Shown here: positions 1 to 15,729 of the stretch, one piece after another
How the letters are laid out: each line of letters opens with the position of its first letter
How positions within the stretch are numbered: position 1 is the first letter of the stretch
Source: a virus
Taxonomy: Duplodnaviria; Caudoviricetes
Length of the DNA: 64,000 nt
Virus record (IMG/VR): IMGVR_UViG_3300038673_000220
Location: 64,001 to 128,000 of that record
Reading direction: 5' to 3' (one strand)
Made by a program: the position numbers and the translations under genes
Notes under the pieces: model-generated
The model's input: the letters and a program-made list of their open reading frames with translations, nothing else
What the model was told of the DNA's origin: nothing
Databases searched by the model: none

Positions 1-72
1 ACTTCATTACTTATAAATTAGAAGATGAATCATTTCGAATGTTATCAAATAACGATATTAATTAAGTTATAA

Positions 73-456
73 ATGATAAAAGATGAGGTCCTTATCATGG
101 AAATACTTACAATATCTGGCAACAATGAAGTTGATATAAAAATAACTTCTGGAGAAAACGATATATCAAGCGATGACTCATTTGAAGAAACACTTCGTAC
201 TATTATCGAAACTCAGAAACCAACTATTAAATTTATCAACATATCTATAGATAAAAACGCTATGATGTGTTTTTGTTTATCGGAGGGTTTCGATACAAAA
301 AGTGTTCATGATTTTGAGGTATGTTTAATGATGGGAGATAGATTCTATAGAACGATTACCGACCTTAAGAAAAAGATCAAAGAGGATCGTAATATAGTTT
401 TGAGTGTTACTATCGACATTCCACATGGATTAAATCCAATTAGAAAATTAAATTGA
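73..456 (+). CDS. hypothetical protein (start may be the ATG at 97)
   Basis: 127-aa ORF; GAGG precedes the second ATG; co-directional with the next gene. Confidence 0.7.
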   Translation: MIKDEVLIMEILTISGNNEVDIKITSGENDISSDDSFEETLRTIIETQKPTIKFINISIDKNAMMCFCLSEGFDTKSVHDFEVCLMMGDRFYRTITDLKKKIKEDRNIVLSVTIDIPHGLNPIRKLN

Positions 457-468
457 GAGGATATCACA

Positions 469-963
469 ATGGCTATTGAAGAAATCACTAATATGACTTT
501 TCTTGATAAAATAAAGAGCTGCATCAAGAAATATAAATGCATGATAATGGCTGTTAACCATAATACATGTGACAAAGATGATATCAAGGATAACTATGAT
601 AAGATCAATGATGCTTTTGTTTACTCAATTGGTCGTAAAGAATTTGGTCATCCAGATATTTTGATATTATGTGGTTCAGATAAAGAGAATCCTATCTCAT
701 CTGATCAATTGAGTAAACGCTTTAATTACGCATTACAAGCATTAATAGTTTTAATGGAAGAATGGGATGATAACCCTGTTAAACCTGGGCACACCTTTGG
801 TGGTAAAGATACTATCATAATCAAATTCATTTCAAGAGAATATGAGGATTATGATGATTTTATCGAATGTTGTAAAGAGGATATTGCCATCCAAGCTGGT
901 AACTATTATGGTACCTACGATTATGAATTGATTGTAGGTGTTTTTGTACAAGATATAGAGTAG
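469..963 (+). CDS. DUF4262-like hypothetical protein
   Basis: GAGG RBS; FVYSIG..FGHPDILI resembles the DUF4262 F-x-Y-T-V-G...GHPEL motif. Confidence 0.6.
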   Translation: MAIEEITNMTFLDKIKSCIKKYKCMIMAVNHNTCDKDDIKDNYDKINDAFVYSIGRKEFGHPDILILCGSDKENPISSDQLSKRFNYALQALIVLMEEWDDNPVKPGHTFGGKDTIIIKFISREYEDYDDFIECCKEDIAIQAGNYYGTYDYELIVGVFVQDIE

Positions 964-1088
964 CTGTATAGTTATACAGCCACGTCTTCTATAGGTCGAA
1001 TCATCTGATTTATTTCAAGCGATGCGGTGATCTGAGAAGGTAAAAATGGAAACGAATGGAATCATTCATAATTTAGGAGAATCTTATC

Positions 1089-1892
1089 ATGGACGCAATG
1101 GAAATTTACAAATCTATCAATAGTGATTCGACTGATGAAGAGAAGCTTGAAGCCTGCAAAGCTATCTTGGAAGCTCCTGGTAATAGAGCTTGGACTATCC
1201 GTTTAGCTAAATATTACGGTTGGTGGGATAATAGTGTAGCTGAACCATGTAAAGCTATCTTGGAAGCTCCCGGTGATAAAGCTATGGCTATCAGTTGTGC
1301 TAAATCTGAAGGTTGGTGGAGGGATGAGGTAGCCGAGCCATGTAAAGCTATCTTGAAAGCTGGTGGTGATAGAGCTATTGCCATTTATTGTGCCAAACGA
1401 GATGATTGGTGGAGAGATGAGGTAGCTGAGCCATGCAAAGCTATATTGGAAGCTCCCGGTGATAAAGCTACGGCTATTTGTTGGGCTAAAATTAATGATT
1501 GGTGGAAAGATAGCGTAGCTGAACCATGTAAAGCTATCTTGGAAGCTCCTGGTAATAGAGCTTGGGCTATCTATAATGCTGTTGATGACGGTTGGTGGAA
1601 AGATAGTGTAGCTGAGCCATGCAAAGCTATATTGGAAGCTTCCGGTGATAAAGCGATATCTATCTGTCTTGCCAAATCTGATGGTTGGTGGGATAATAGT
1701 GTAGCTGAACCATGTCAAGCTATCATGGAAGCTTCTGGTGATAGAGCTGTGGCTATCAGTTGTGCTAAATCTGAAGGTTGGTGGAAGGATGAGGTAGCTG
1801 AGCCATGTCAAGCTATCATGGAATCTTCAGGTGATAGAGATATGGCTATTTATTACGCAGTTAGTATTGGGTGGTGGAAAGAATCAAGATAA
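1089..1892 (+). CDS. alpha-helical tandem-repeat protein (8 x 31 aa)
   Basis: AGGAG RBS; unit consensus VAEPCKAILEAPGD(K/R)AxAIxxAKxxGWWKD(S/E); terminator immediately downstream. Confidence 0.9.
   Translation: MDAMEIYKSINSDSTDEEKLEACKAILEAPGNRAWTIRLAKYYGWWDNSVAEPCKAILEAPGDKAMAISCAKSEGWWRDEVAEPCKAILKAGGDRAIAIYCAKRDDWWRDEVAEPCKAILEAPGDKATAICWAKINDWWKDSVAEPCKAILEAPGNRAWAIYNAVDDGWWKDSVAEPCKAILEASGDKAISICLAKSDGWWDNSVAEPCQAIMEASGDRAVAISCAKSEGWWKDEVAEPCQAIMESSGDRDMAIYYAVSIGWWKESR
1144..1880 (+). repeat. coding tandem repeat, 93-nt unit, 8 copies
   Basis: recurring gtagctga(a/g)ccatg(t/c)aaagctat...ggtgg at 93-nt spacing. Confidence 0.95.
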
Positions 1893-1897
1893 GATAT

Positions 1898-1940
1898 ATT
1901 GAGAAGCTTCCATTTACGGAAGCTTCTCAATTATTTTTTT
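1898..1940. terminator. intrinsic terminator between convergent genes
   Basis: 14-bp stem attgagaagcttcc/ggaagcttctcaat followed by a T-run. Confidence 0.9.
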
Positions 1941-3486
1941 ATTCTTCAGTTGTAAATAATTCTAGATAAGAATTGATGTCAAGAACAAGATAACTTACAT
2001 GATCATAAACAAAGTTCACCCAGTTAAGACCACCAGATTCTATTTTAGCGAATGTTAATATATTAGTTTCACCAGCTGCAACAGACAATGCTTGATTAAG
2101 TTTAACGCTCCATTCGCGAGTATTTGATGTCATTTCTGACCAACCGTTATCAGTTGTTGAGAAGTCTCGATACGTCGGATGAATAGTGAGTAAACTTGAA
2201 TAGAGGTTCGTATCAGCTGGAGCTACACCTACAAAATACTTTTCATAAGCAGCTGTCATGATTTCACGATAAGGATCTGTTGCTCTAGCGATAAGTTCCG
2301 TAACAGTATTTATTTTTTCAATAAGATCAGTGCCTTTGATGATCGATGGATAAATATCAGCATTTGTAAGTTTAGTGATATTATCATAAAAAGGAATGAG
2401 CAAGAAGGCTGAATGATAGAAGATATCAGGTAAGATGATTTCCCAAATAGCCCTTGAACCGACACCACTATTAAGAAGGTATTCGGCAATAGCGTTTCGA
2501 GCCTCAAGTGAATCAGGACAACGTCCACGATAAATCAAACTAAATACAGCCATGTAAGTATTACCGTTATAGATATAACGTGTTTCGAATAAGTACATAC
2601 CTGTCTGATCACGATTAGTAAGCTCTGGTTGGAGAAGAGAATCTGACCATTTCTTACTGAGTATAGCTGAGTTGATAGGATCTGTCAATCCTGAAGGGTT
2701 GAGTAATGTTTGTAAATCTAATGGTGGAACTATGTTGATAATAGTTGATTCAGGATATTCTGACTTAAAGAGTGACTTATTGAACCAGATCTTGAATTCA
2801 ACAACAACGCTATTGATGATGAATTTGAACGAGAAATACCCTGGAACGAGTCGGTGTATGTTGACACCACCATAAACCATAACGACTGATTTCGCAGAAG
2901 ATACTTTGATAGAGTTCGTTACGTATCCGAGGAAATTCGTTGGATCATTCACCAAGACACTATTGATATCTGATAATGAATCAGAAGCAATCGTACCGTA
3001 AGATAGGTACTCAATAACGTTAAAGACACGTTGTTGCTCTAATGATGAGATCGTTTCGAGCGCTGATTTTTCATCATCTGATAATTTAGCATAATCAAGA
3101 GTGAATTTTATTTCACGAGTATTTGATATACTCACATAACCTTCAGGGAGAGAATCGTTGATAAAATCAAGATTATCTAGATCTGGGTATTGTGCAAGAG
3201 TAACTGTTTCTGAAGGTTCAATTAAAAGATGAGCTAATCCTTTTTGATATACATTAGTTATTGTATCAAGGAATATGAGGGTGTCGTCAATTTCTGCAAT
3301 AGCTTCTTGACGAAAAAGGATAGGTAATCTTGATGCACGTAAATCACCTAACTCAGTAGGTTGTATAAAAAATTCGATCGTGTCTCGATCAAGATAACCG
3401 CACGGAATAGCTAGTTTCTCAAGATTCACAAACCTACTTGCGCTATCGATGAGAGATCTATCTGAGAGAAATCCCTGAATAGACAT
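1939..3486 (-). CDS. putative virion structural protein (phiKZ-like conserved)
   Basis: long ORF; GGAGG RBS before the ATG at 3486; divergent from the structural block. Confidence 0.6.
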   Translation of the reverse strand: MSIQGFLSDRSLIDSASRFVNLEKLAIPCGYLDRDTIEFFIQPTELGDLRASRLPILFRQEAIAEIDDTLIFLDTITNVYQKGLAHLLIEPSETVTLAQYPDLDNLDFINDSLPEGYVSISNTREIKFTLDYAKLSDDEKSALETISSLEQQRVFNVIEYLSYGTIASDSLSDINSVLVNDPTNFLGYVTNSIKVSSAKSVVMVYGGVNIHRLVPGYFSFKFIINSVVVEFKIWFNKSLFKSEYPESTIINIVPPLDLQTLLNPSGLTDPINSAILSKKWSDSLLQPELTNRDQTGMYLFETRYIYNGNTYMAVFSLIYRGRCPDSLEARNAIAEYLLNSGVGSRAIWEIILPDIFYHSAFLLIPFYDNITKLTNADIYPSIIKGTDLIEKINTVTELIARATDPYREIMTAAYEKYFVGVAPADTNLYSSLLTIHPTYRDFSTTDNGWSEMTSNTREWSVKLNQALSVAAGETNILTFAKIESGGLNWVNFVYDHVSYLVLDINSYLELFTTEE

Positions 3487-3648
3487 AAAAACCTCCAACA
3501 GAATTTATAATAAAAGTAATATAACCTAATGTCGATCTTAAAGTCATATAATTGTGAGAATGAGATACCTTTTTAATATAATGTTATTTCAAGTACCGAT
3601 TCTATGAAATTACGTGGGTATTTATCCTAATTAAGGAGGATCCAGCAT

Positions 3649-10414: not shown

Positions 10415-11587
10415 TTATATCAAACTGCAGATGATGTCAAATTTGCTTTTGATGTTTTCAACGACGAACGGTTGACTAGCATTTGACCAAAATCTCGTAT
10501 TAGCTAATCGCTTACTCACAACATCGAAAAGCTTTTTGAGTTCTTGACTCCTATTATTTTCCGGTTGTAAACCATATATTCCGATAAATGTAGCTAGTAT
10601 GAAATACTCTTTAACGAATTCTAACCATCGGTATTGAGCTCCACCATGGAATCCAATATAATGATTATCTATCGTTGTATTGATGAGATCCAATAGGCTA
10701 GTTTCTTTATCAACGTATAACGAAGTGATTACTTCATCTGGTTTCACTTTTCCATGAACGCACTTATCGATAAGATCTTCGATTTCTTGAATAACAGATC
10801 TTCTATCGTTTAAAACAAACGTTGACTTATCAGTTGTTGTGAATTTCTCTTCAGTATATGAAAGATCAGGATCTATCGATTTAAACACTACGATATCGTA
10901 GATAGATTTCAAAATCCAGGTCCTCAAGTTGTCTTCCAATAAAGGTATCAGGCATGTTTTAAAGATGAATGGATAGTTATTTGTATTGTCAACAAATTCT
11001 TCCGGAAAGAGTAAACGATACTTCGTGTAAAGCATCAGTAGCTTGACAACGTTGATACTAAAGATAACCTCATATGGAGGATTCTTTTGATACTTCAATT
11101 TACTCGTAATGATGTCAAGTTCGATATCGCGTGAATCATTTGAAAGCATCGTTAAAGGATGAAGTTTCATCCAATCGTTAAAATTATTACTTCCAAATGG
11201 AGTTGTTTCTACGATATCGATATCTTCAGAAATAATCAGATATTCAGCTGTTTTGTATTTCTGACTATAAATGAAATTCTTATACCTGATAGGGTATTGA
11301 CGTATGAAATCAGAATACGCTGGACTCTCATATTCATTAACGATCTTAGCAAATCTATCAAAGTCATTATGAAATTTCAATAGGTAAGGAATATCAGCTC
11401 GCGTTATAAGAGAATTCAAGAAATCAATACCCATTGATGGGATTGGATCATTTGTAAATCTTAAGGTTCTTTCTTCAAGTCGTCTTAAGCCTATCTCTAA
11501 ATTACTTAAATAATTCTTAAGATCAACTATTTGGATTTTGTAGCTATGAGGTATCCTTGAGATGAAGGTTCTGAGATCTGTAAACAT
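10415..11587 (-). CDS. conserved chimallivirus protein (phiKZ gp52-like by position)
   Basis: 390 aa; GAGG RBS; divergent from chimallin. Confidence 0.55.
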   Translation of the reverse strand: MFTDLRTFISRIPHSYKIQIVDLKNYLSNLEIGLRRLEERTLRFTNDPIPSMGIDFLNSLITRADIPYLLKFHNDFDRFAKIVNEYESPAYSDFIRQYPIRYKNFIYSQKYKTAEYLIISEDIDIVETTPFGSNNFNDWMKLHPLTMLSNDSRDIELDIITSKLKYQKNPPYEVIFSINVVKLLMLYTKYRLLFPEEFVDNTNNYPFIFKTCLIPLLEDNLRTWILKSIYDIVVFKSIDPDLSYTEEKFTTTDKSTFVLNDRRSVIQEIEDLIDKCVHGKVKPDEVITSLYVDKETSLLDLINTTIDNHYIGFHGGAQYRWLEFVKEYFILATFIGIYGLQPENNRSQELKKLFDVVSKRLANTRFWSNASQPFVVENIKSKFDIICSLI

Positions 11588-11664
11588 TTATATCCTCATA
11601 TATTAATTTTTTATTTGGATGAGTAATAGTGTGATCACAATATCGTAAAGGATTCATATTTCAG

Positions 11665-11682
11665 ATATATATCATTTGATTG
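11665..11682 (+). promoter_or_regulatory. early-type phage promoter ATATATATYAT-N6-R
   Basis: ATATATATCAT-TTGATT-G; the motif recurs 8 times upstream of shell/nvRNAP genes and small units. Confidence 0.7.
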
Positions 11683-11792
11683 AATAAACTGATATTTCAC
11701 ATGCTAATCTGGAGAATGCTCATTATGGACGCTGTAGAAATTTATTAGTTGAAAATTGAATGTACTTCAGAATAAATGAATCACAATTTCAA

Positions 11793-11810
11793 ATATATAT
11801 TATTTAAGTG
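11793..11810 (+). promoter_or_regulatory. early-type phage promoter for chimallin
   Basis: ATATATATTAT-TTAAGT-G. Confidence 0.75.
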
Positions 11811-11944
11811 AGGTTGTCATCATATGTAAAAAAATATACTGAGTGATAATAATATGAACTAAAGATGAGACAGTTAGATGTCTCAACCTACGAAGTGTTT
11901 TTGTGGACCTAGGACACCACTAACTTAAAAAGAGGAGCAACAAA

Positions 11945-13444
11945 ATGATCATTAACAATGAAGGACAGCAGGTAAACCAGCCGCAAACTGACGCAGCACC
12001 GAAAGCATTTTCTCTGAGAGATGTATTGCAGCGATGCAATTCTCAGAATGGTTGGTCTGGTGTCGGTCAAGATTACATCAATTCAATCCGTACTCAAATC
12101 GAGGATCCCGCAGCTACTATTAAGGGATCTATGCATCATATCAGCGATACAGCTGTAGCGTTTAATCATGAAGATAACGGTATCGTTCTTGTTCATGAAG
12201 GCGACATGATGAATTACCAGGAGCTTATCAATGAGGTTAAGCTCTACAACGCAAAACAGGCATATTACAGTGCTTTTCCGAAAAAGAAGCTGTTGAACAT
12301 CGTCACTGTTAATCGGTTCATGTTCAACCGACCGATTCAGATGGCCTCTTATATCAATAATCTGTTCTTGTCTCAGAGCGATATGATTAAGAGCTTCAAT
12401 TATCAATCTTTCGGATCTCAGAATAGTATTGATATCAACACTGATATCGGAGTTGTTCGTCGATTCTTCGAGATGCATTCGACGACTCCAGTATTCTGTG
12501 GAAACTTCGGATTCGTAGCATCTCTTGCGGATAAGAATTCCAACCGCAGTGCTGGTTATAATCAACCGACACCGATGTTTGGTGTTTCTGGTTATGTTGA
12601 GTTTATCAGGAATGATTCTGATGGAACATTCACTCCTATCGTTCATGTAACTGATATTCTTTCGGTTCTTCCTACCAATAAAATCTTGGCTCTTGCTTTA
12701 CCGCTCATCGGTGGAGTAATCATTTCTCGCAATATCTGGAAACAGCCATTCTCAGCGATTGCGAAAGATAACAATATCAATATTGGTAATCTCATCATCG
12801 ATGCCAATAGCGGTAAGCCTTATGAAGTGAAATCTGACGCTGATTTCCGTCAGATGTTCCGTCAGTATATCGGAGATCCGCTTCTTTGTATTGATATCAA
12901 ATCTGGCGGAGCTGATATTCCAGGCTTGAATCGTTTGATTCGTCAGTCTGAGCATATTGCTGTATTCAATGAGATCCTCGAGTTCTTCGGTGAGGCTCCT
13001 TTGAACGCTTGTCCGCCGATTGCTCAGAACATCTTCCGAGAAATCATCGGTGCTTCTGATATCGCCAAGAACAATATGGTAGAACCCATTGACAGTCGTG
13101 ATATCAATTACCTCTACACGGTTGCAAAAGCCAAATACAACCCTCGTCTGGATTATCTCTTGGCTCGTAATGAGTATGATCCGGTTCGACGATTCGAGGC
13201 TATCAAAGAGATTTATGGTGACATCACACCTACTCACATCTCTGCAACTACCATGTTCCACAACGACTTCCTTGGTCGTATCGTCAACAGACTGAATGAA
13301 ACGATCAAAATCGATATCCCGAATGTTGGTGATACGATGATGATCAATATGAATGAGTTTGCATCTAAGGCGTATAAACCGAATATGCCTATGTTTGGTC
13401 AAGGACAGAGCTCATTCAATATCGGTGGTTGGTCCTCTTTCTAA
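11945..13444 (+). CDS. chmA: chimallin, major phage nuclear shell protein
   Basis: directly upstream of the nvRNAP beta' N subunit (phiKZ gp54-gp55 order); motifs FTPIVHVTDI, LALAL, W..PF...NIGNL, IDIKSGG and DSRDINYL resemble ChmA; codon bias of a highly expressed gene; tandem early promoters. Confidence 0.8.
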   Translation: MIINNEGQQVNQPQTDAAPKAFSLRDVLQRCNSQNGWSGVGQDYINSIRTQIEDPAATIKGSMHHISDTAVAFNHEDNGIVLVHEGDMMNYQELINEVKLYNAKQAYYSAFPKKKLLNIVTVNRFMFNRPIQMASYINNLFLSQSDMIKSFNYQSFGSQNSIDINTDIGVVRRFFEMHSTTPVFCGNFGFVASLADKNSNRSAGYNQPTPMFGVSGYVEFIRNDSDGTFTPIVHVTDILSVLPTNKILALALPLIGGVIISRNIWKQPFSAIAKDNNINIGNLIIDANSGKPYEVKSDADFRQMFRQYIGDPLLCIDIKSGGADIPGLNRLIRQSEHIAVFNEILEFFGEAPLNACPPIAQNIFREIIGASDIAKNNMVEPIDSRDINYLYTVAKAKYNPRLDYLLARNEYDPVRRFEAIKEIYGDITPTHISATTMFHNDFLGRIVNRLNETIKIDIPNVGDTMMINMNEFASKAYKPNMPMFGQGQSSFNIGGWSSF

Positions 13445-13685: not shown

Positions 13686-15729
13686 ATGCAGAAATGTTTT
13701 GTATTACCGAGTATCATTAACTTAGATGATCTCTTTAGTCGGACACCAAATACAACGGTGTTTAATGAGATCATGCTTGAATGTCAATCAAGCGAAGTTG
13801 TTGATATACTTTGTGATATTTCCAATGATAAAACTGATTCAGTAGCCTCATGTGAATGCGGTTGCCTTAAAGGAAATTATTACACTGGAACGAAATGTCG
13901 GGTATGTAATACTGTTTGCGAATCGAATCTCTTTGGTGAGATACGGAATGATTCGTGGTTAGCTATACCAAACTCTATCAAAGGAGTTTTGAATCCACAA
14001 GTTTTCAGAATCTTGGAAAGCTGGATGGGAAATACTACAGGTCATCAACCTATCATACGACAAATCCTCGATATGCAATTACCAGTAGAACCTATACCGA
14101 ATACGCCATTTTATTCTGGTATGGGATTTAATTGGTTTTATGATAATTTCAACGCTGTTATAACGTACTTTTTGACAAGCCATCCAACAGATACTGGTAG
14201 AAAAGCTGCTCCGAGTATAGAGCTCTTTCTGAAACAAGCTGGAGAAGCTATCTGGTGTCATTATTTACCAATATTAAGTAAGATCATCCAACCTATTACT
14301 CGTGTGAATAAAGATGTTCGTTATGCTGATACGGACATCAAGAATCTCATGAAGTCGATATTCACTTTAAGGAGCATCCTTTTAGCTGAAAAGACCATGA
14401 AGTTTTCTTATGATCACATCGATCGAAACTTCTTCAATGTGTATATTGAGTTCATCAATTACACGAAAAATATCTTGTATTCGAAGCTGCCAAGAAAACA
14501 GAGCATACTGAGGAAACATGTCTTTGGATCACGATCGCATTGTTCAGGACGAACTGTTGCGATCCCAATCGTTGAACCTCATGAGTCAGATAATATCCAT
14601 CTTCCTTGGCGATTAGGATTGATGATGTATCGTTATCACGTATTGGCAGTTTTGGTCAAGAAGTTTAGAATACCACCACTTAAAGCGTTTAATCGTGTTG
14701 TCAATGCTATCAACGTGTACGATTATGAGATCGATCGTATTATGCAGGAGTTGATCGCTGATTGTCCGTATAAAGGATTCCCTCTACTTGTGAATCGAAA
14801 TCCGTCATTGAAAATAGCGAGTATCCAATTATTATTCGCAACGAAGATCAAACCTGCATTAACTGAGAATCCGGTCAATTTACCAAATATTGAAGATATT
14901 AATGTCTCAGTGTTTGATCAGGATGATGAAGGATTCAGTAAGAGCTCATCGATCTTGGACATCAATGATGAAGATCAAATCGATCCAAAACTGAAGTATC
15001 TATTACGAAGCTATGTTGAAGATGATACAATAGCTGTTTCACCACTGATCGTTAAAGGTCCCAATCTTGACTTAACACATAAGGTCCGCTATGAAGTAAT
15101 TCATAGATGAAAATCTCTCTAATTGCTGGAACCTACTAAAGCTGTCTCACTACAACGTGACTCGAAAGGGTGAGCGTGAATGTTTGAAAACGAGACGGAT
15201 ATATGGGGAACCGTGGATTCTAAGAATCCCTTTAGCAGCCAAGATCCTAAAGTTATTGGGTATTGATTAATTGAATGAAGATACTCAGGTGGATTAGTTA
15301 ACCAATAAATAAGGATAAGGTCCAACGACTATGTGATTAATGGGTAATTCAATAACAATGTATCTATGGGTTATTGAGTCTACATACGCGCCATTAAGTA
15401 TACAGTACTTACCAAGTGGGTAGGGAAATGGGAGACTGCCTCAGGAGATGAGGTAGAAGAGATAGTCTGGACATCTAGGGAAAACCTAGAGCTGCAGGTA
15501 ATGCTGCGGGGATCAACTAACGACTGATCCTGAACATAACGTTGATGGGGACGAGATCAATATCATTCCGTTGTATGAGATGGATGAAGTCAAAGAGTTT
15601 GAGCGTCTTTATCCAGCTCACCGTTTCATTTCTGATAACGATCTCAAAATCGATGGTGGAGATGTTGTCATTTCTTCTCAACAGATTTGTATGCTGGCCT
15701 CATGGATGAATGATCCTGAATACAGCTAA
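13686..15729 (+). CDS. non-virion RNAP beta' N-terminal subunit (phiKZ gp55-like), spliced: join(13686..15072,15542..15729)
   Basis: Zn motif CECG...CRVC; LRKHVFGSR and NRNPSL; splicing restores the catalytic NLDFDGDE (GAC T|TT GAT GGG GAC); exon 2 is open to the TAA at 15727-15729. Confidence 0.92.
15073..15541 (+). mobile_element. group I intron (IA-like, no homing endonuclease), 469 nt
   Basis: 5' exon ends in U and can pair with IGS GGUC (U.G wobble); P element AATTGCTGGAA, R element GTCCAACGACTA, S element AAGAGATAGTCT; P3 TCTCTC/GGGAGA; terminal G; removal restores DFDGD. Confidence 0.93.

What the first reader, a model, noticed from the sequence alone, without database searches (positions are those of the whole stretch)
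1089..1892. Natural alphaRep-like solenoid: 8 x 31-aa repeats with one hypervariable face
Seen: the scaffold (VAEPC.AI.EA.G..A..I..A....WW) is nearly invariant, while unit positions 17, 20-21 and 24-25 vary freely (W/RL/YY, M/SC/SE, I/YC/RD, T/CW/IN, W/YN/DD, I/CL/SD, V/SC/SE, M/YY/SI). The i, i+3/4, i+7/8 spacing places them on one face of a helix. Known: this layout is shared by HEAT-like alphaRep binders (also 31-aa units) and code-bearing repeats such as PPR/PUF. Inference: a modular, diversifiable binding protein, for example an anti-defence or host-takeover binder or a sequence-reading nucleic-acid binder. I do not recognise the WW-containing unit as a named family.
Basis: partly seen in the sequence, partly recalled or inferred. 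Interest (0 to 1): 0.78.

Follow-up and report, generated by a model that had tools for sequence, protein, structure and literature searches.

The report
New helical-repeat protein family in jumbo phages
An uncultured giant phage encodes a protein made of eight near-identical 31-residue helical repeats that differ mainly along one helix face. It belongs to an undescribed, fast-turning-over phage gene family that probably acts as a set of protein binders, though no target or function has been shown.

Summary
Window 1089-1892 (+) is a real 267-aa gene: an 18-aa cap plus 8 exact 31-aa units. Diversity peaks at unit positions 17, 20, 21, 24 and 25.

AlphaFold2 with a 56-sequence alignment (pLDDT 86; about 98 over residues 1-170) gives a two-helix alpha-solenoid. 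Positions 17-24 lie on helix B, opposite its conserved face.

No Pfam, NCBIfam, PHROG or PDB family matches. Fold searches return only generic HEAT/ARM solenoids (Z 7 or less).

The family has the core C..I..APG[DN]RA.AIY.AK..GWW and periods of 31, 29 or 28 aa. It is rare (64 representatives in 1.84 billion proteins) and was found only in metagenomic, mostly phiKZ-like, phage contigs.

It behaves as a birth-and-death multigene family:
- The host record holds 3 copies plus a 5' relic.
- A relative holds at least 10, including six tandem genes at the spot where this phage keeps only the relic.
- The gene has no positional ortholog.

The proteins are acidic (pI 4.6), which argues against nucleic-acid reading. 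Positive selection is not demonstrated, and the concave-face placement could not be tested.

Best reading: a protein-binding module of an accessory, host-interaction type family.

The scan has noted analogous repeat-gene families in other jumbo phages, but not this family.

The parts
1075..1079 (+). Shine-Dalgarno-like AGGAG, 9 nt before the ATG
   Evidence: Read directly from the sequence. The same GGAGAAT...ATGGACGC cassette recurs at the relic near 11711 and in paralogs of a related phage.
1089..1892 (+). Gene for the 267-aa all-repeat protein (stop codon included)
   Evidence: ORF. Homologs at E 1e-81 to 1e-19. Synonymous variation occurs at invariant residues.
1089..1142 (+). N-terminal cap, 18 aa (MDAMEIYKSINSDSTDEE), conserved in paralogs as MKDAMELY.SI...STD.EK
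   Evidence: Alignment of family members. The AF2 model has helix 3-9 and the start of helix 16-28 here.
1143..1886 (+). Eight exact 93-nt (31-aa) units, starting at 1143, 1236, 1329, 1422, 1515, 1608, 1701 and 1794. Each unit is helix A (positions 4-10), an APGD turn, helix B (positions 15-24) and a 10-residue GWW loop.
   Evidence: Unit register and entropies, codon table, secondary structure of the AF2 model.
1899..1941 (.). 13-bp perfect hairpin (1899-1911 / 1918-1930, loop ATTTAC) followed by a T-run. It is a likely bidirectional terminator between this gene and the convergent virion gene (1939-3498, minus strand).
   Evidence: Sequence. RNA fold -22.6 kcal/mol, z = -9.06, 0 of 200 shuffles fold as well.

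Best explanation
This is a real gene for an acidic alpha-solenoid protein: an N-cap plus eight 31-residue helix-turn-helix-loop units. It belongs to an undescribed repeat family found only in phage-like metagenomic contigs. The family core is C-x2-I-x2-A-P-G-[DN]-R-A-x-A-I-Y-x-A-K-x2-G-W-W.

In my reading, the invariant small and hydrophobic residues (C5, I8, A11, G13, A16, I19, A22) and the W27-W28 pair build a rigid stack. The outward stripe of helix B (positions 17, 20, 21, 24, and 25 just after the helix) differs in every unit. The eight stripes would then add up to one long, aromatic- and hydrophobic-rich recognition surface that binds another protein.

Paralogs carry different stripes, unit numbers and fused domains, so they would bind different partners. 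The family is gained, lost and duplicated quickly and sits in variable islands, which is the behaviour expected of accessory host-interaction (takeover or counter-defence) genes.

Shown here: the gene, the repeat anatomy, the family, its turnover, and the predicted helical solenoid. Inferred: surface exposure of the stripe, protein binding, and any role against the host.
For: - Repeat anatomy and variable columns.
- AF2 with MSA: pLDDT 86, pTM 0.81, about 98 for residues 1-170, two helices per unit.
- Entropy on helix B points to one side. The variable positions span about 100 degrees opposite A16/I19/A22.
- The same positions (21, 24, 17) are the most variable among 78 units of a distant clade, where the scaffold has pN = 0 despite pS of 0.5-1.1.
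- The stripe is 62-67% hydrophobic and 21-30% aromatic, like binder paratopes.
- Relatives fuse the array to unrelated N- or C-terminal domains, a Zn-ribbon or a membrane anchor.
- Multigene family: 3 copies in the 149-kb record; at least 10 in a related phage, including six tandem genes with conserved 30-nt spacers and one decaying unit; many tandem copies in the Ga0172381 contigs.
- The syntenic site in this phage keeps only an RBS plus a 7-codon relic.
- There is no positional ortholog. The slot holds other small genes in relatives.
Against: - There is no experimental or partner evidence of any kind.
- Residues at 17 and 21 are mostly hydrophobic. They could be half-buried between neighbouring B helices, or could mediate self-association.
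- Per-site pN/pS is only about 1-2, so the variable sites may simply be unconstrained.
- Units 2 and 7 share an identical stripe.
- The gene follows the giant fibre gene and small genes on the same strand with no early-promoter-like motif, so it could be a late or virion-related gene.
- AF2 confidence drops at residues 175-204, where the alignment is thin.
Confidence: 0.5

Rival explanations
1. Virion-associated or assembly role. The protein could be a late product made with the giant fibre gene upstream: a fibre or virion assembly helper, a decoration protein, or cargo packed into the capsid and injected.
For: It has the same orientation as the roughly 2,680-aa fibre gene and the small genes before it. 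It ends at a terminator shared with a virion structural gene (phrog_3293), and other virion genes follow. No early-promoter-like motif lies upstream. The scan's notes on other jumbo phages propose capsid-loaded repeat families (untested here).
Against: Relatives keep the fibre and virion genes but carry unrelated small genes in this slot, so a dedicated assembly factor is unlikely. In the relative, most family copies lie elsewhere, in an array whose first gene has an AT-rich promoter-like upstream region next to RNA polymerase and shell-candidate genes. There is no PHROG structural match.
Confidence: 0.15
2. Self-assembling scaffold. The hydrophobic helix-B stripe would mediate homo- or hetero-oligomerisation of family members (filaments or lattices), not recognition of foreign targets.
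For: Positions 17 and 21 are mostly W, L, M, I, C or Y. A stripe that hydrophobic over eight repeats would normally be covered. Many paralogs are co-encoded.
Against: Self-association surfaces are usually conserved, but here they are the least conserved columns. Fusion to diverse domains fits an adaptor better.
Confidence: 0.12
3. Decoy or mimic. The acidic solenoid would imitate DNA or another polyanion to block restriction or other DNA-binding defence proteins, as Ocr, ArdA or pentapeptide-repeat mimics do.
For: pI 4.6 and net charge -15. The family average is -1 to -1.7 per unit, and helix A carries a constant E3/K6/E10 stripe.
Against: The charge density is modest compared with known mimics (my knowledge of Ocr/ArdA, not tested here). 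The variable stripe is hydrophobic, not acidic. No similarity to any mimic appeared in the PDB sequence or fold searches.
Confidence: 0.08
4. Code-bearing nucleic-acid reader (PUF/PPR/TALE-like). The invariant Trp pair would stack on bases, and the variable residues would read one base per unit.
For: Each unit has an invariant aromatic pair plus 2-3 variable residues at fixed positions, which formally resembles the PUF/PPR logic.
Against: The protein and nearly all relatives are acidic (pI 4.4-5.3). The variable residues are mainly hydrophobic, not the polar or basic edge-readers expected. There is no Pfam PUF/PPR signal. In Ala-rich helices the Trp pair is more likely core packing (inference).
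Confidence: 0.05

Closest known systems
alphaRep / natural HEAT_PBS-type repeats (PF03130; Guellouz et al. 2013, PMC3754942)
   Same: Both have a 31-residue unit of two antiparallel helices stacked into a solenoid, with an N-cap. Variability is concentrated on one face of the second helix in an i, i+3/4, i+7/8 pattern: alphaRep 18, 19, 22, 23, 26 versus 17, 20, 21, 24, 25 here. The variable surface is rich in aromatic and hydrophobic residues.
   Different: None of 56 family members matches the Pfam HEAT_PBS model at E up to 1. The helices are shorter (7 and 10 residues) and are joined by a 10-residue loop with an invariant G-W-W and an invariant Cys, neither of which alphaRep has. The structural match to an alphaRep chain is only Z 4.9-5.0. 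A concave location is unverified. These are natural phage genes, not designed ones.
Ankyrin repeats and the ankyrin multigene families of poxviruses and giant viruses
   Same: The unit is helix (7) - 4-residue Gly turn - helix (10) - long loop, with a Pro at the start of helix A and Gly residues at the turn and after helix B, close to ANK proportions. The genes form tandem, rapidly turning-over paralog families in a large DNA virus.
   Different: The period is 31 aa, not 33, and there are no TPLH or GH motifs. No Ank-clan Pfam hit was found. The weak phmmer hits to ANK proteins align in a register that contradicts the predicted helices. No ANK structure appears among the listed fold matches. 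Variability lies on helix B, not on helix 1 or the hairpin tips used by ANK and DARPins (my knowledge).
Generic HEAT/ARM alpha-solenoids (PP2A A subunit, symplekin, INTS4, importins)
   Same: These are the best fold matches, and they are two-layer helical solenoids used as protein-binding scaffolds.
   Different: Z is only 5-7 with rmsd 6-9 A, which is within the range that unrelated helical repeats reach. The unit here is much shorter than the classical 37-47-aa HEAT repeat.
Repeat-protein multigene families noted by this scan in other uncultured jumbo phages (DUF285/LRR, 27-aa mini-ankyrin, pentapeptide and helical-repeat arrays)
   Same: The genomic behaviour is the same: many small paralogous repeat-protein genes, often tandem, with variable faces and unknown targets (AI notes, not tested here).
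   Different: The repeat families and folds differ, and no sequence look-alike of this family was found in other windows of the scan.

Membership tests
HEAT_PBS / alphaRep-type repeats (PF03130) | Significant match to the family profile | tested here: not met
   The query has no HEAT-type hit at E up to 10, and none of the 56 family members has one at E up to 1. A profile of the family finds no alphaRep or HEAT chain in the PDB.
HEAT_PBS / alphaRep-type repeats (PF03130) | Unit of about 31 residues made of two antiparallel helices | tested here: met
   Exact 31-aa period. Helices at unit positions 4-10 and 15-24 in the AF2 model.
HEAT_PBS / alphaRep-type repeats (PF03130) | Variable residues on the concave face formed by the second helices | not testable with these tools
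   The variable positions are on the second helix and on one side of it. Curvature and solvent exposure need model coordinates, which are not provided.
HEAT_PBS / alphaRep-type repeats (PF03130) | Close structural superposition on solved members | tested here: inconclusive
   alphaRep fusion 7p0h_A: Z 4.9-5.0, rmsd 6.8-7.2 A over 162-166 residues. YibA 1oyz_A: Z 5.1, rmsd 6.5 A over 181 residues.
Ankyrin repeat (Pfam Ank clan) | Profile match, 33-residue unit, TPLH and GH motifs | tested here: not met
   No Ank-clan hit in 56 members. The period is 31 aa and the motifs are absent. phmmer alignments to ANK proteins need 2-residue gaps per unit and place helix B on the ANK hairpin.
Ankyrin repeat (Pfam Ank clan) | L-shaped helix-turn-helix plus beta-hairpin fold | tested here: inconclusive
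   No ANK chain appears among the 50 rows listed by either VIA search. Giant-virus ANK models show up only at Foldseek E 0.3-1.3, TM 0.2.
PUF / PPR code-bearing RNA-binding repeats | 36- or 35-residue unit, profile match, basic RNA-binding surface | tested here: not met
   31-aa unit, no Pfam match, pI 4.6 and net charge -15. PUF chains appear only at Foldseek E 0.4-0.5, TM about 0.2.
DUF4116 repeats (PF13475), present in neighbouring genes of related phages | Profile match | tested here: not met
   No DUF4116 hit for any family member. The DUF4116-annotated neighbours have visibly different units.
Viral accessory multigene repeat families (functional analogy: poxvirus ANK, ASFV MGF) | Several paralogs per genome, tandem arrays, gain and loss between close relatives | tested here: met
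   The 149-kb record holds 3 copies plus 1 relic. A relative holds at least 10, six of them in tandem, with a decaying unit. The syntenic site is empty here. There is no positional ortholog.
Viral accessory multigene repeat families (functional analogy: poxvirus ANK, ASFV MGF) | Demonstrated role in host range or immune evasion | not testable with these tools
   The phage is uncultured, the host is unknown, and there are no expression or interaction data.

The most novel reading that the evidence does not exclude
A clade of uncultured phiKZ-like jumbo phages may keep a natural repertoire of alphaRep-like binders. This would be a birth-and-death family of small solenoids whose helix-B stripes are re-assorted by unit duplication and recombination, each paralog neutralising or hijacking a different host (for example defence) protein. 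That would be a phage counterpart of poxvirus and giant-virus ankyrin families, and a new compact (31-aa, Trp-clamped) scaffold for binder engineering.
Probability: 0.35. Interest if true: 0.75.

Novelty: new variant of a known kind. Interest (0 to 1): 0.55.

Why it matters
If the binder reading holds, these genes mark where a poorly known lineage of giant phages touches its host. Each paralog would be a ready-made probe for a host or defence protein.

The family would also add to the evidence that jumbo phages, like large eukaryotic viruses, expand repeat-protein gene families as adaptable interaction tools.

The unit itself is an unusually regular natural scaffold with an invariant Cys and Trp-Trp. 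It has no entry in Pfam, NCBIfam, PHROGs or the PDB, so it is worth a family definition and a structure.

If it instead proves to be a virion or self-assembling protein, it is an ordinary lineage-specific repeat protein.

Tried and rejected
- **Cultured phages:** megablast and tblastn of the gene, of P0004 and of the neighbouring 499-aa gene against 50,697 phage records found nothing.
- **IMG/VR:** a peptide-pattern scan and a degenerate motif scan found nothing outside the window's own record. The alignment was too diverse for the search for related loci.
- **Profile libraries:** Pfam, PHROGs and NCBIfam gave only sub-threshold, biased hits such as Cornifin. The precomputed 'PF28138 EA1' tag on P0001 is marked faint and is not in the local Pfam.
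- **PDB by sequence or profile:** nothing.
- **Fold searches:** Foldseek against PDB and BFVD gave best E 0.05 and TM below 0.3. VIA gave Z of 7 or less.
- **ESM Atlas:** best score 0.83, uninformative.
- **Single-sequence AF2:** pLDDT 56 with spurious strands; discarded.
- **Long ANK, HEAT and NB-ARC proteins in the tail of the representative search:** rejected as periodicity-driven.
- **Neighbouring 499-aa gene as chimallin:** could not be confirmed with PHROG, Pfam, PDB sequence or a 3-sequence profile.
- **DGR-type diversification:** no reverse transcriptase in the 149-kb record, which is only about 54% complete.
- **Population microdiversity:** two other assemblies are 100% identical, and one breaks inside the repeats.
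- **The genome search on metagenome loci:** not possible.
- **Antisense ORF 1203-1811:** judged a by-product of the repeats.

Full report
**1. The object**

Window 1089-1892 (+) is an open frame of 267 codons. Tandem Repeats Finder reports a 93-nt period, 7.5 copies, 77% matches and a score of 689, plus a weaker 279-nt super-period. After an 18-residue N-terminal segment there are eight units of exactly 31 residues and one final Arg. The WW pairs are spaced 31 residues apart seven times.

They are at most 1.5 bits elsewhere and 0 at nine positions.

The invariant residues still carry synonymous codon differences. This shows purifying selection on the scaffold and not merely very recent copying.

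Several features mark a real gene:
- An AGGAG site lies 9 nt upstream of the ATG.
- A perfect 13-bp hairpin plus T-run follows the stop (-22.6 kcal/mol, z = -9). It is shared with the convergent virion gene.
- Homologs exist elsewhere.

The higher G+C of the gene (about 44% against about 32% around it) is consistent with its Ala/Gly/Pro/Trp-rich composition. The 202-codon antisense frame is a by-product of the repeats.

**2. Where it lives**

The window is bases 64,001-128,000 of a 149-kb viral record estimated to be 54% complete. The window encodes several pieces of multisubunit RNA polymerase beta-type subunits, an NAD-dependent ligase, and virion proteins of PHROG families typical of phiKZ-like jumbo phages. 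No cultured phage matches at the DNA or protein level.

**3. Fold**

A single-sequence AlphaFold2 run was poor (pLDDT 56). With a 56-sequence family alignment (A1) the model reaches mean pLDDT 86 and pTM 0.81. pLDDT is about 98 for residues 1-170, where the alignment is deep, and dips at 175-204, where it is thin.

Each unit is helix A (positions 4-10), an A-P-G-D turn, helix B (positions 15-24) and a 10-residue loop carrying G-W-W.

On helix B the conserved residues A16, A18, I19, A22 and K23 fall on one arc. Positions 17, 20, 21 and 24 fall in the opposite arc of about 100 degrees, and position 25 follows the helix end. This fits a single outward stripe. I could not obtain coordinates, so burial and the concave/convex question remain untested.

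Fold searches give nothing specific:
- Foldseek against PDB and BFVD: E of at least 0.05, TM below 0.3.
- VIA-align: best Z of 7.0 (symplekin HEAT, a Phytophthora effector), then INTS4, AP-3 and importins. In the second look at Foldseek's own top chains, PP2A-A is best at Z 6.8.
- YibA gives Z 5.1 and an alphaRep fusion Z 4.9-5.0.

These values are within what unrelated helical repeats reach. The class is therefore a two-layer HEAT/ARM-like alpha-solenoid, with no assignable family.

**4. Family**

Pfam, PHROGs, NCBIfam, PDB sequences and a family profile against the PDB give no meaningful hit for the query or for any of 56 members. An exhaustive phmmer search of 1.84 billion cluster representatives finds only 64 proteins at E up to 1e-3 and 34 at E up to 1e-10. 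The long ANK, HEAT and NB-ARC proteins in the tail align in registers inconsistent with the predicted helices, and I reject them as periodicity artefacts.

True members share C..I..APG[DN]RA.AIY.AK..GWW and usually have 2-6 units. The query's eight units are matched only by L024 and by the L048 fusion product.

A degenerate DNA motif scan found arrays in about 25 metagenome contigs and one MAG contig. Sub-families have periods of 31, 29 and 28 residues.

The array is fused in different relatives to unrelated C-terminal domains, an N-terminal domain, a Zn-ribbon or a membrane anchor. This is the behaviour of an adaptor module.

**5. Multigene, birth-and-death behaviour**

The 149-kb record has two more copies outside the window. 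One is a 187-aa, 5-unit paralog. The other is a copy cut by the contig start, with a 115-aa C-terminal domain.

A related phage is known from ENA contigs of 57-245 kb. Its virion protein is 66% identical to the one here. It has at least ten copies at three loci:
- two in L004;
- two in L060;
- six tandem genes in L059, separated by conserved spacers of about 30 nt, with one gene ending in a unit broken by stops.

L059 is syntenic with window 10,415-13,444. The 390-aa gene is 59% identical and the 496/499-aa gene 45% identical. At that site this phage retains only an RBS and a 7-codon remnant (ATG GAC GCT GTA GAA ATT TAT TAG, 11725-11748). The remnant matches the 5' end of the gene studied here.

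In contigs of sample Ga0172381, tandem copies flank a homolog of the same 499-aa gene and an RNA-polymerase beta' piece. One ORF there is a fusion of two copies.

The gene at 1089 has no positional ortholog. In three relatives the slot between the giant fibre gene and the phrog_3293 virion gene holds other small genes: Zn-ribbon paralogs, a basic-tailed 72-75-aa protein, and a DUF4116 protein.

**6. Is the face 'hypervariable'?**

Pairwise per-codon counts were compared with the overall synonymous distance.

| Unit position | pN/pS, eight window units | pN/pS, 78 units of a distant clade |
|---|---|---|
| 17 | 1.68 | 0.69 |
| 20 | 1.25 | 0.31 (mostly Tyr in this clade) |
| 21 | 1.68 | 0.96 |
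| 24 | 2.00 | 1.02 |
| 25 | 1.34 | 0.52 |

In the window units, positions 12, 23, 29 and 31 also exceed 1. In the distant clade, 17, 21 and 24 are again the most variable columns (2.5-3.1 bits), and C5, G13, I19, W27 and W28 have pN = 0.

The position-specific pattern is therefore a robust family property. The ratios fit unconstrained sites about as well as diversifying selection, and saturation and recombination limit the test.

Units 2 and 7 are 92% identical in DNA and share the stripe SC..SE, so unit duplication and shuffling contribute to the pattern. No reverse transcriptase (a DGR hallmark) is present in the record. Two other assemblies of the phage are 100% identical, so there are no microdiversity data.

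**7. Mechanism**

The protein is acidic (pI 4.6, net charge -15), and relatives have pI 4.4-5.3. The stripe at 17/21/24 is 62-67% hydrophobic and 21-30% aromatic.

This disfavours a PUF/PPR-like nucleic-acid reader. It favours a protein-protein interface, as in alphaRep, where positions 18, 19, 22, 23 and 26 of the second helix make the binding surface (PMC3754942).

My best reading (confidence about 0.5) is a protein-binding solenoid belonging to an accessory host-interaction family. The rivals are:
- a late or virion-associated role, suggested by its position after the fibre gene and the lack of the ATATATATYATTTRA promoter-like motif, which is exact only at 11665, 11793 and 13599;
- self-assembly through the hydrophobic stripe;
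- an acidic decoy;
- a nucleic-acid code reader.

**8. Comparison and novelty**

The protein works like alphaRep/HEAT-like and ankyrin-type binder scaffolds, and like viral repeat multigene families. It fails the sequence membership tests for HEAT_PBS, ANK, PUF/PPR and DUF4116, and the structural tests are inconclusive.

It is best called a new sequence family within the known kind 'alpha-solenoid repeat binders / viral repeat multigene families'. The scan has recorded analogous, unrelated repeat-gene families in other jumbo phages, but no look-alike of this family on other DNA.

Noticed in passing
window 11711-11748 (promoter-like motif at 11665-11679): An RBS plus a 7-codon remnant (MDAVEIY*) matches the start of the repeat gene. 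It sits exactly where a related phage (L059 2194-5759) carries six tandem paralogs, between the homologs of the 390-aa and 499-aa genes. It is therefore a deletion scar of a gene array.
   Followed up: yes
window 11665, 11793, 13599: ATATATATYATTTRA occurs without mismatch only at these three places, upstream of the 499-aa gene and of the RNA-polymerase beta-type gene at 13686. It is a candidate phage promoter motif. With up to 2 mismatches allowed, the window holds 11 matches against 5.3 expected by chance.
   Followed up: partly
window 11945-13444: A 499-aa gene is conserved (45-49% identity) in two other phage lineages and is always near copies of the repeat family.
   Followed up: partly
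window 1-1088 and loci L062-L064 (5550-7400): The slot between the giant fibre gene and the phrog_3293 virion gene is a variable island. Different relatives hold paired Zn-ribbon paralogs, a 72-75-aa protein with a KKRKRKR-type tail, or a DUF4116 protein there.
   Followed up: partly
L048 293-1270 (minus strand): A 325-aa ORF is a head-to-tail fusion of two family genes (3 units, then a second cap and 5 units). This shows how arrays can lengthen.
   Followed up: no
L059 3962-4552: The fourth gene of the six-gene array ends in a unit interrupted by stop codons, that is, a decaying repeat. This is evidence of ongoing gene erosion.
   Followed up: no
L017 1423-2487; L024 997-2394; L026; L047: Sub-families with 29- and 28-residue units (shorter helix A) have their own N-terminal domain (Y.W..F..WM...P.I.VP..GC). 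L017 also has a C-terminal membrane anchor. The L017 contig, binned in a Gammaproteobacteria MAG, also carries thymidylate synthase and a phrog_850 RNA-binding protein, so it is probably phage DNA.
   Followed up: partly
window 1203-1811 (minus strand): A 202-codon antisense open frame lies across the repeats. It has no independent support and is judged an artefact of the periodic sequence.
   Followed up: no
L004 10346-13074; L063 5601-5987: Related phages also carry several DUF4116-type repeat proteins, so more than one repeat family is expanded in this phage clade.
   Followed up: no
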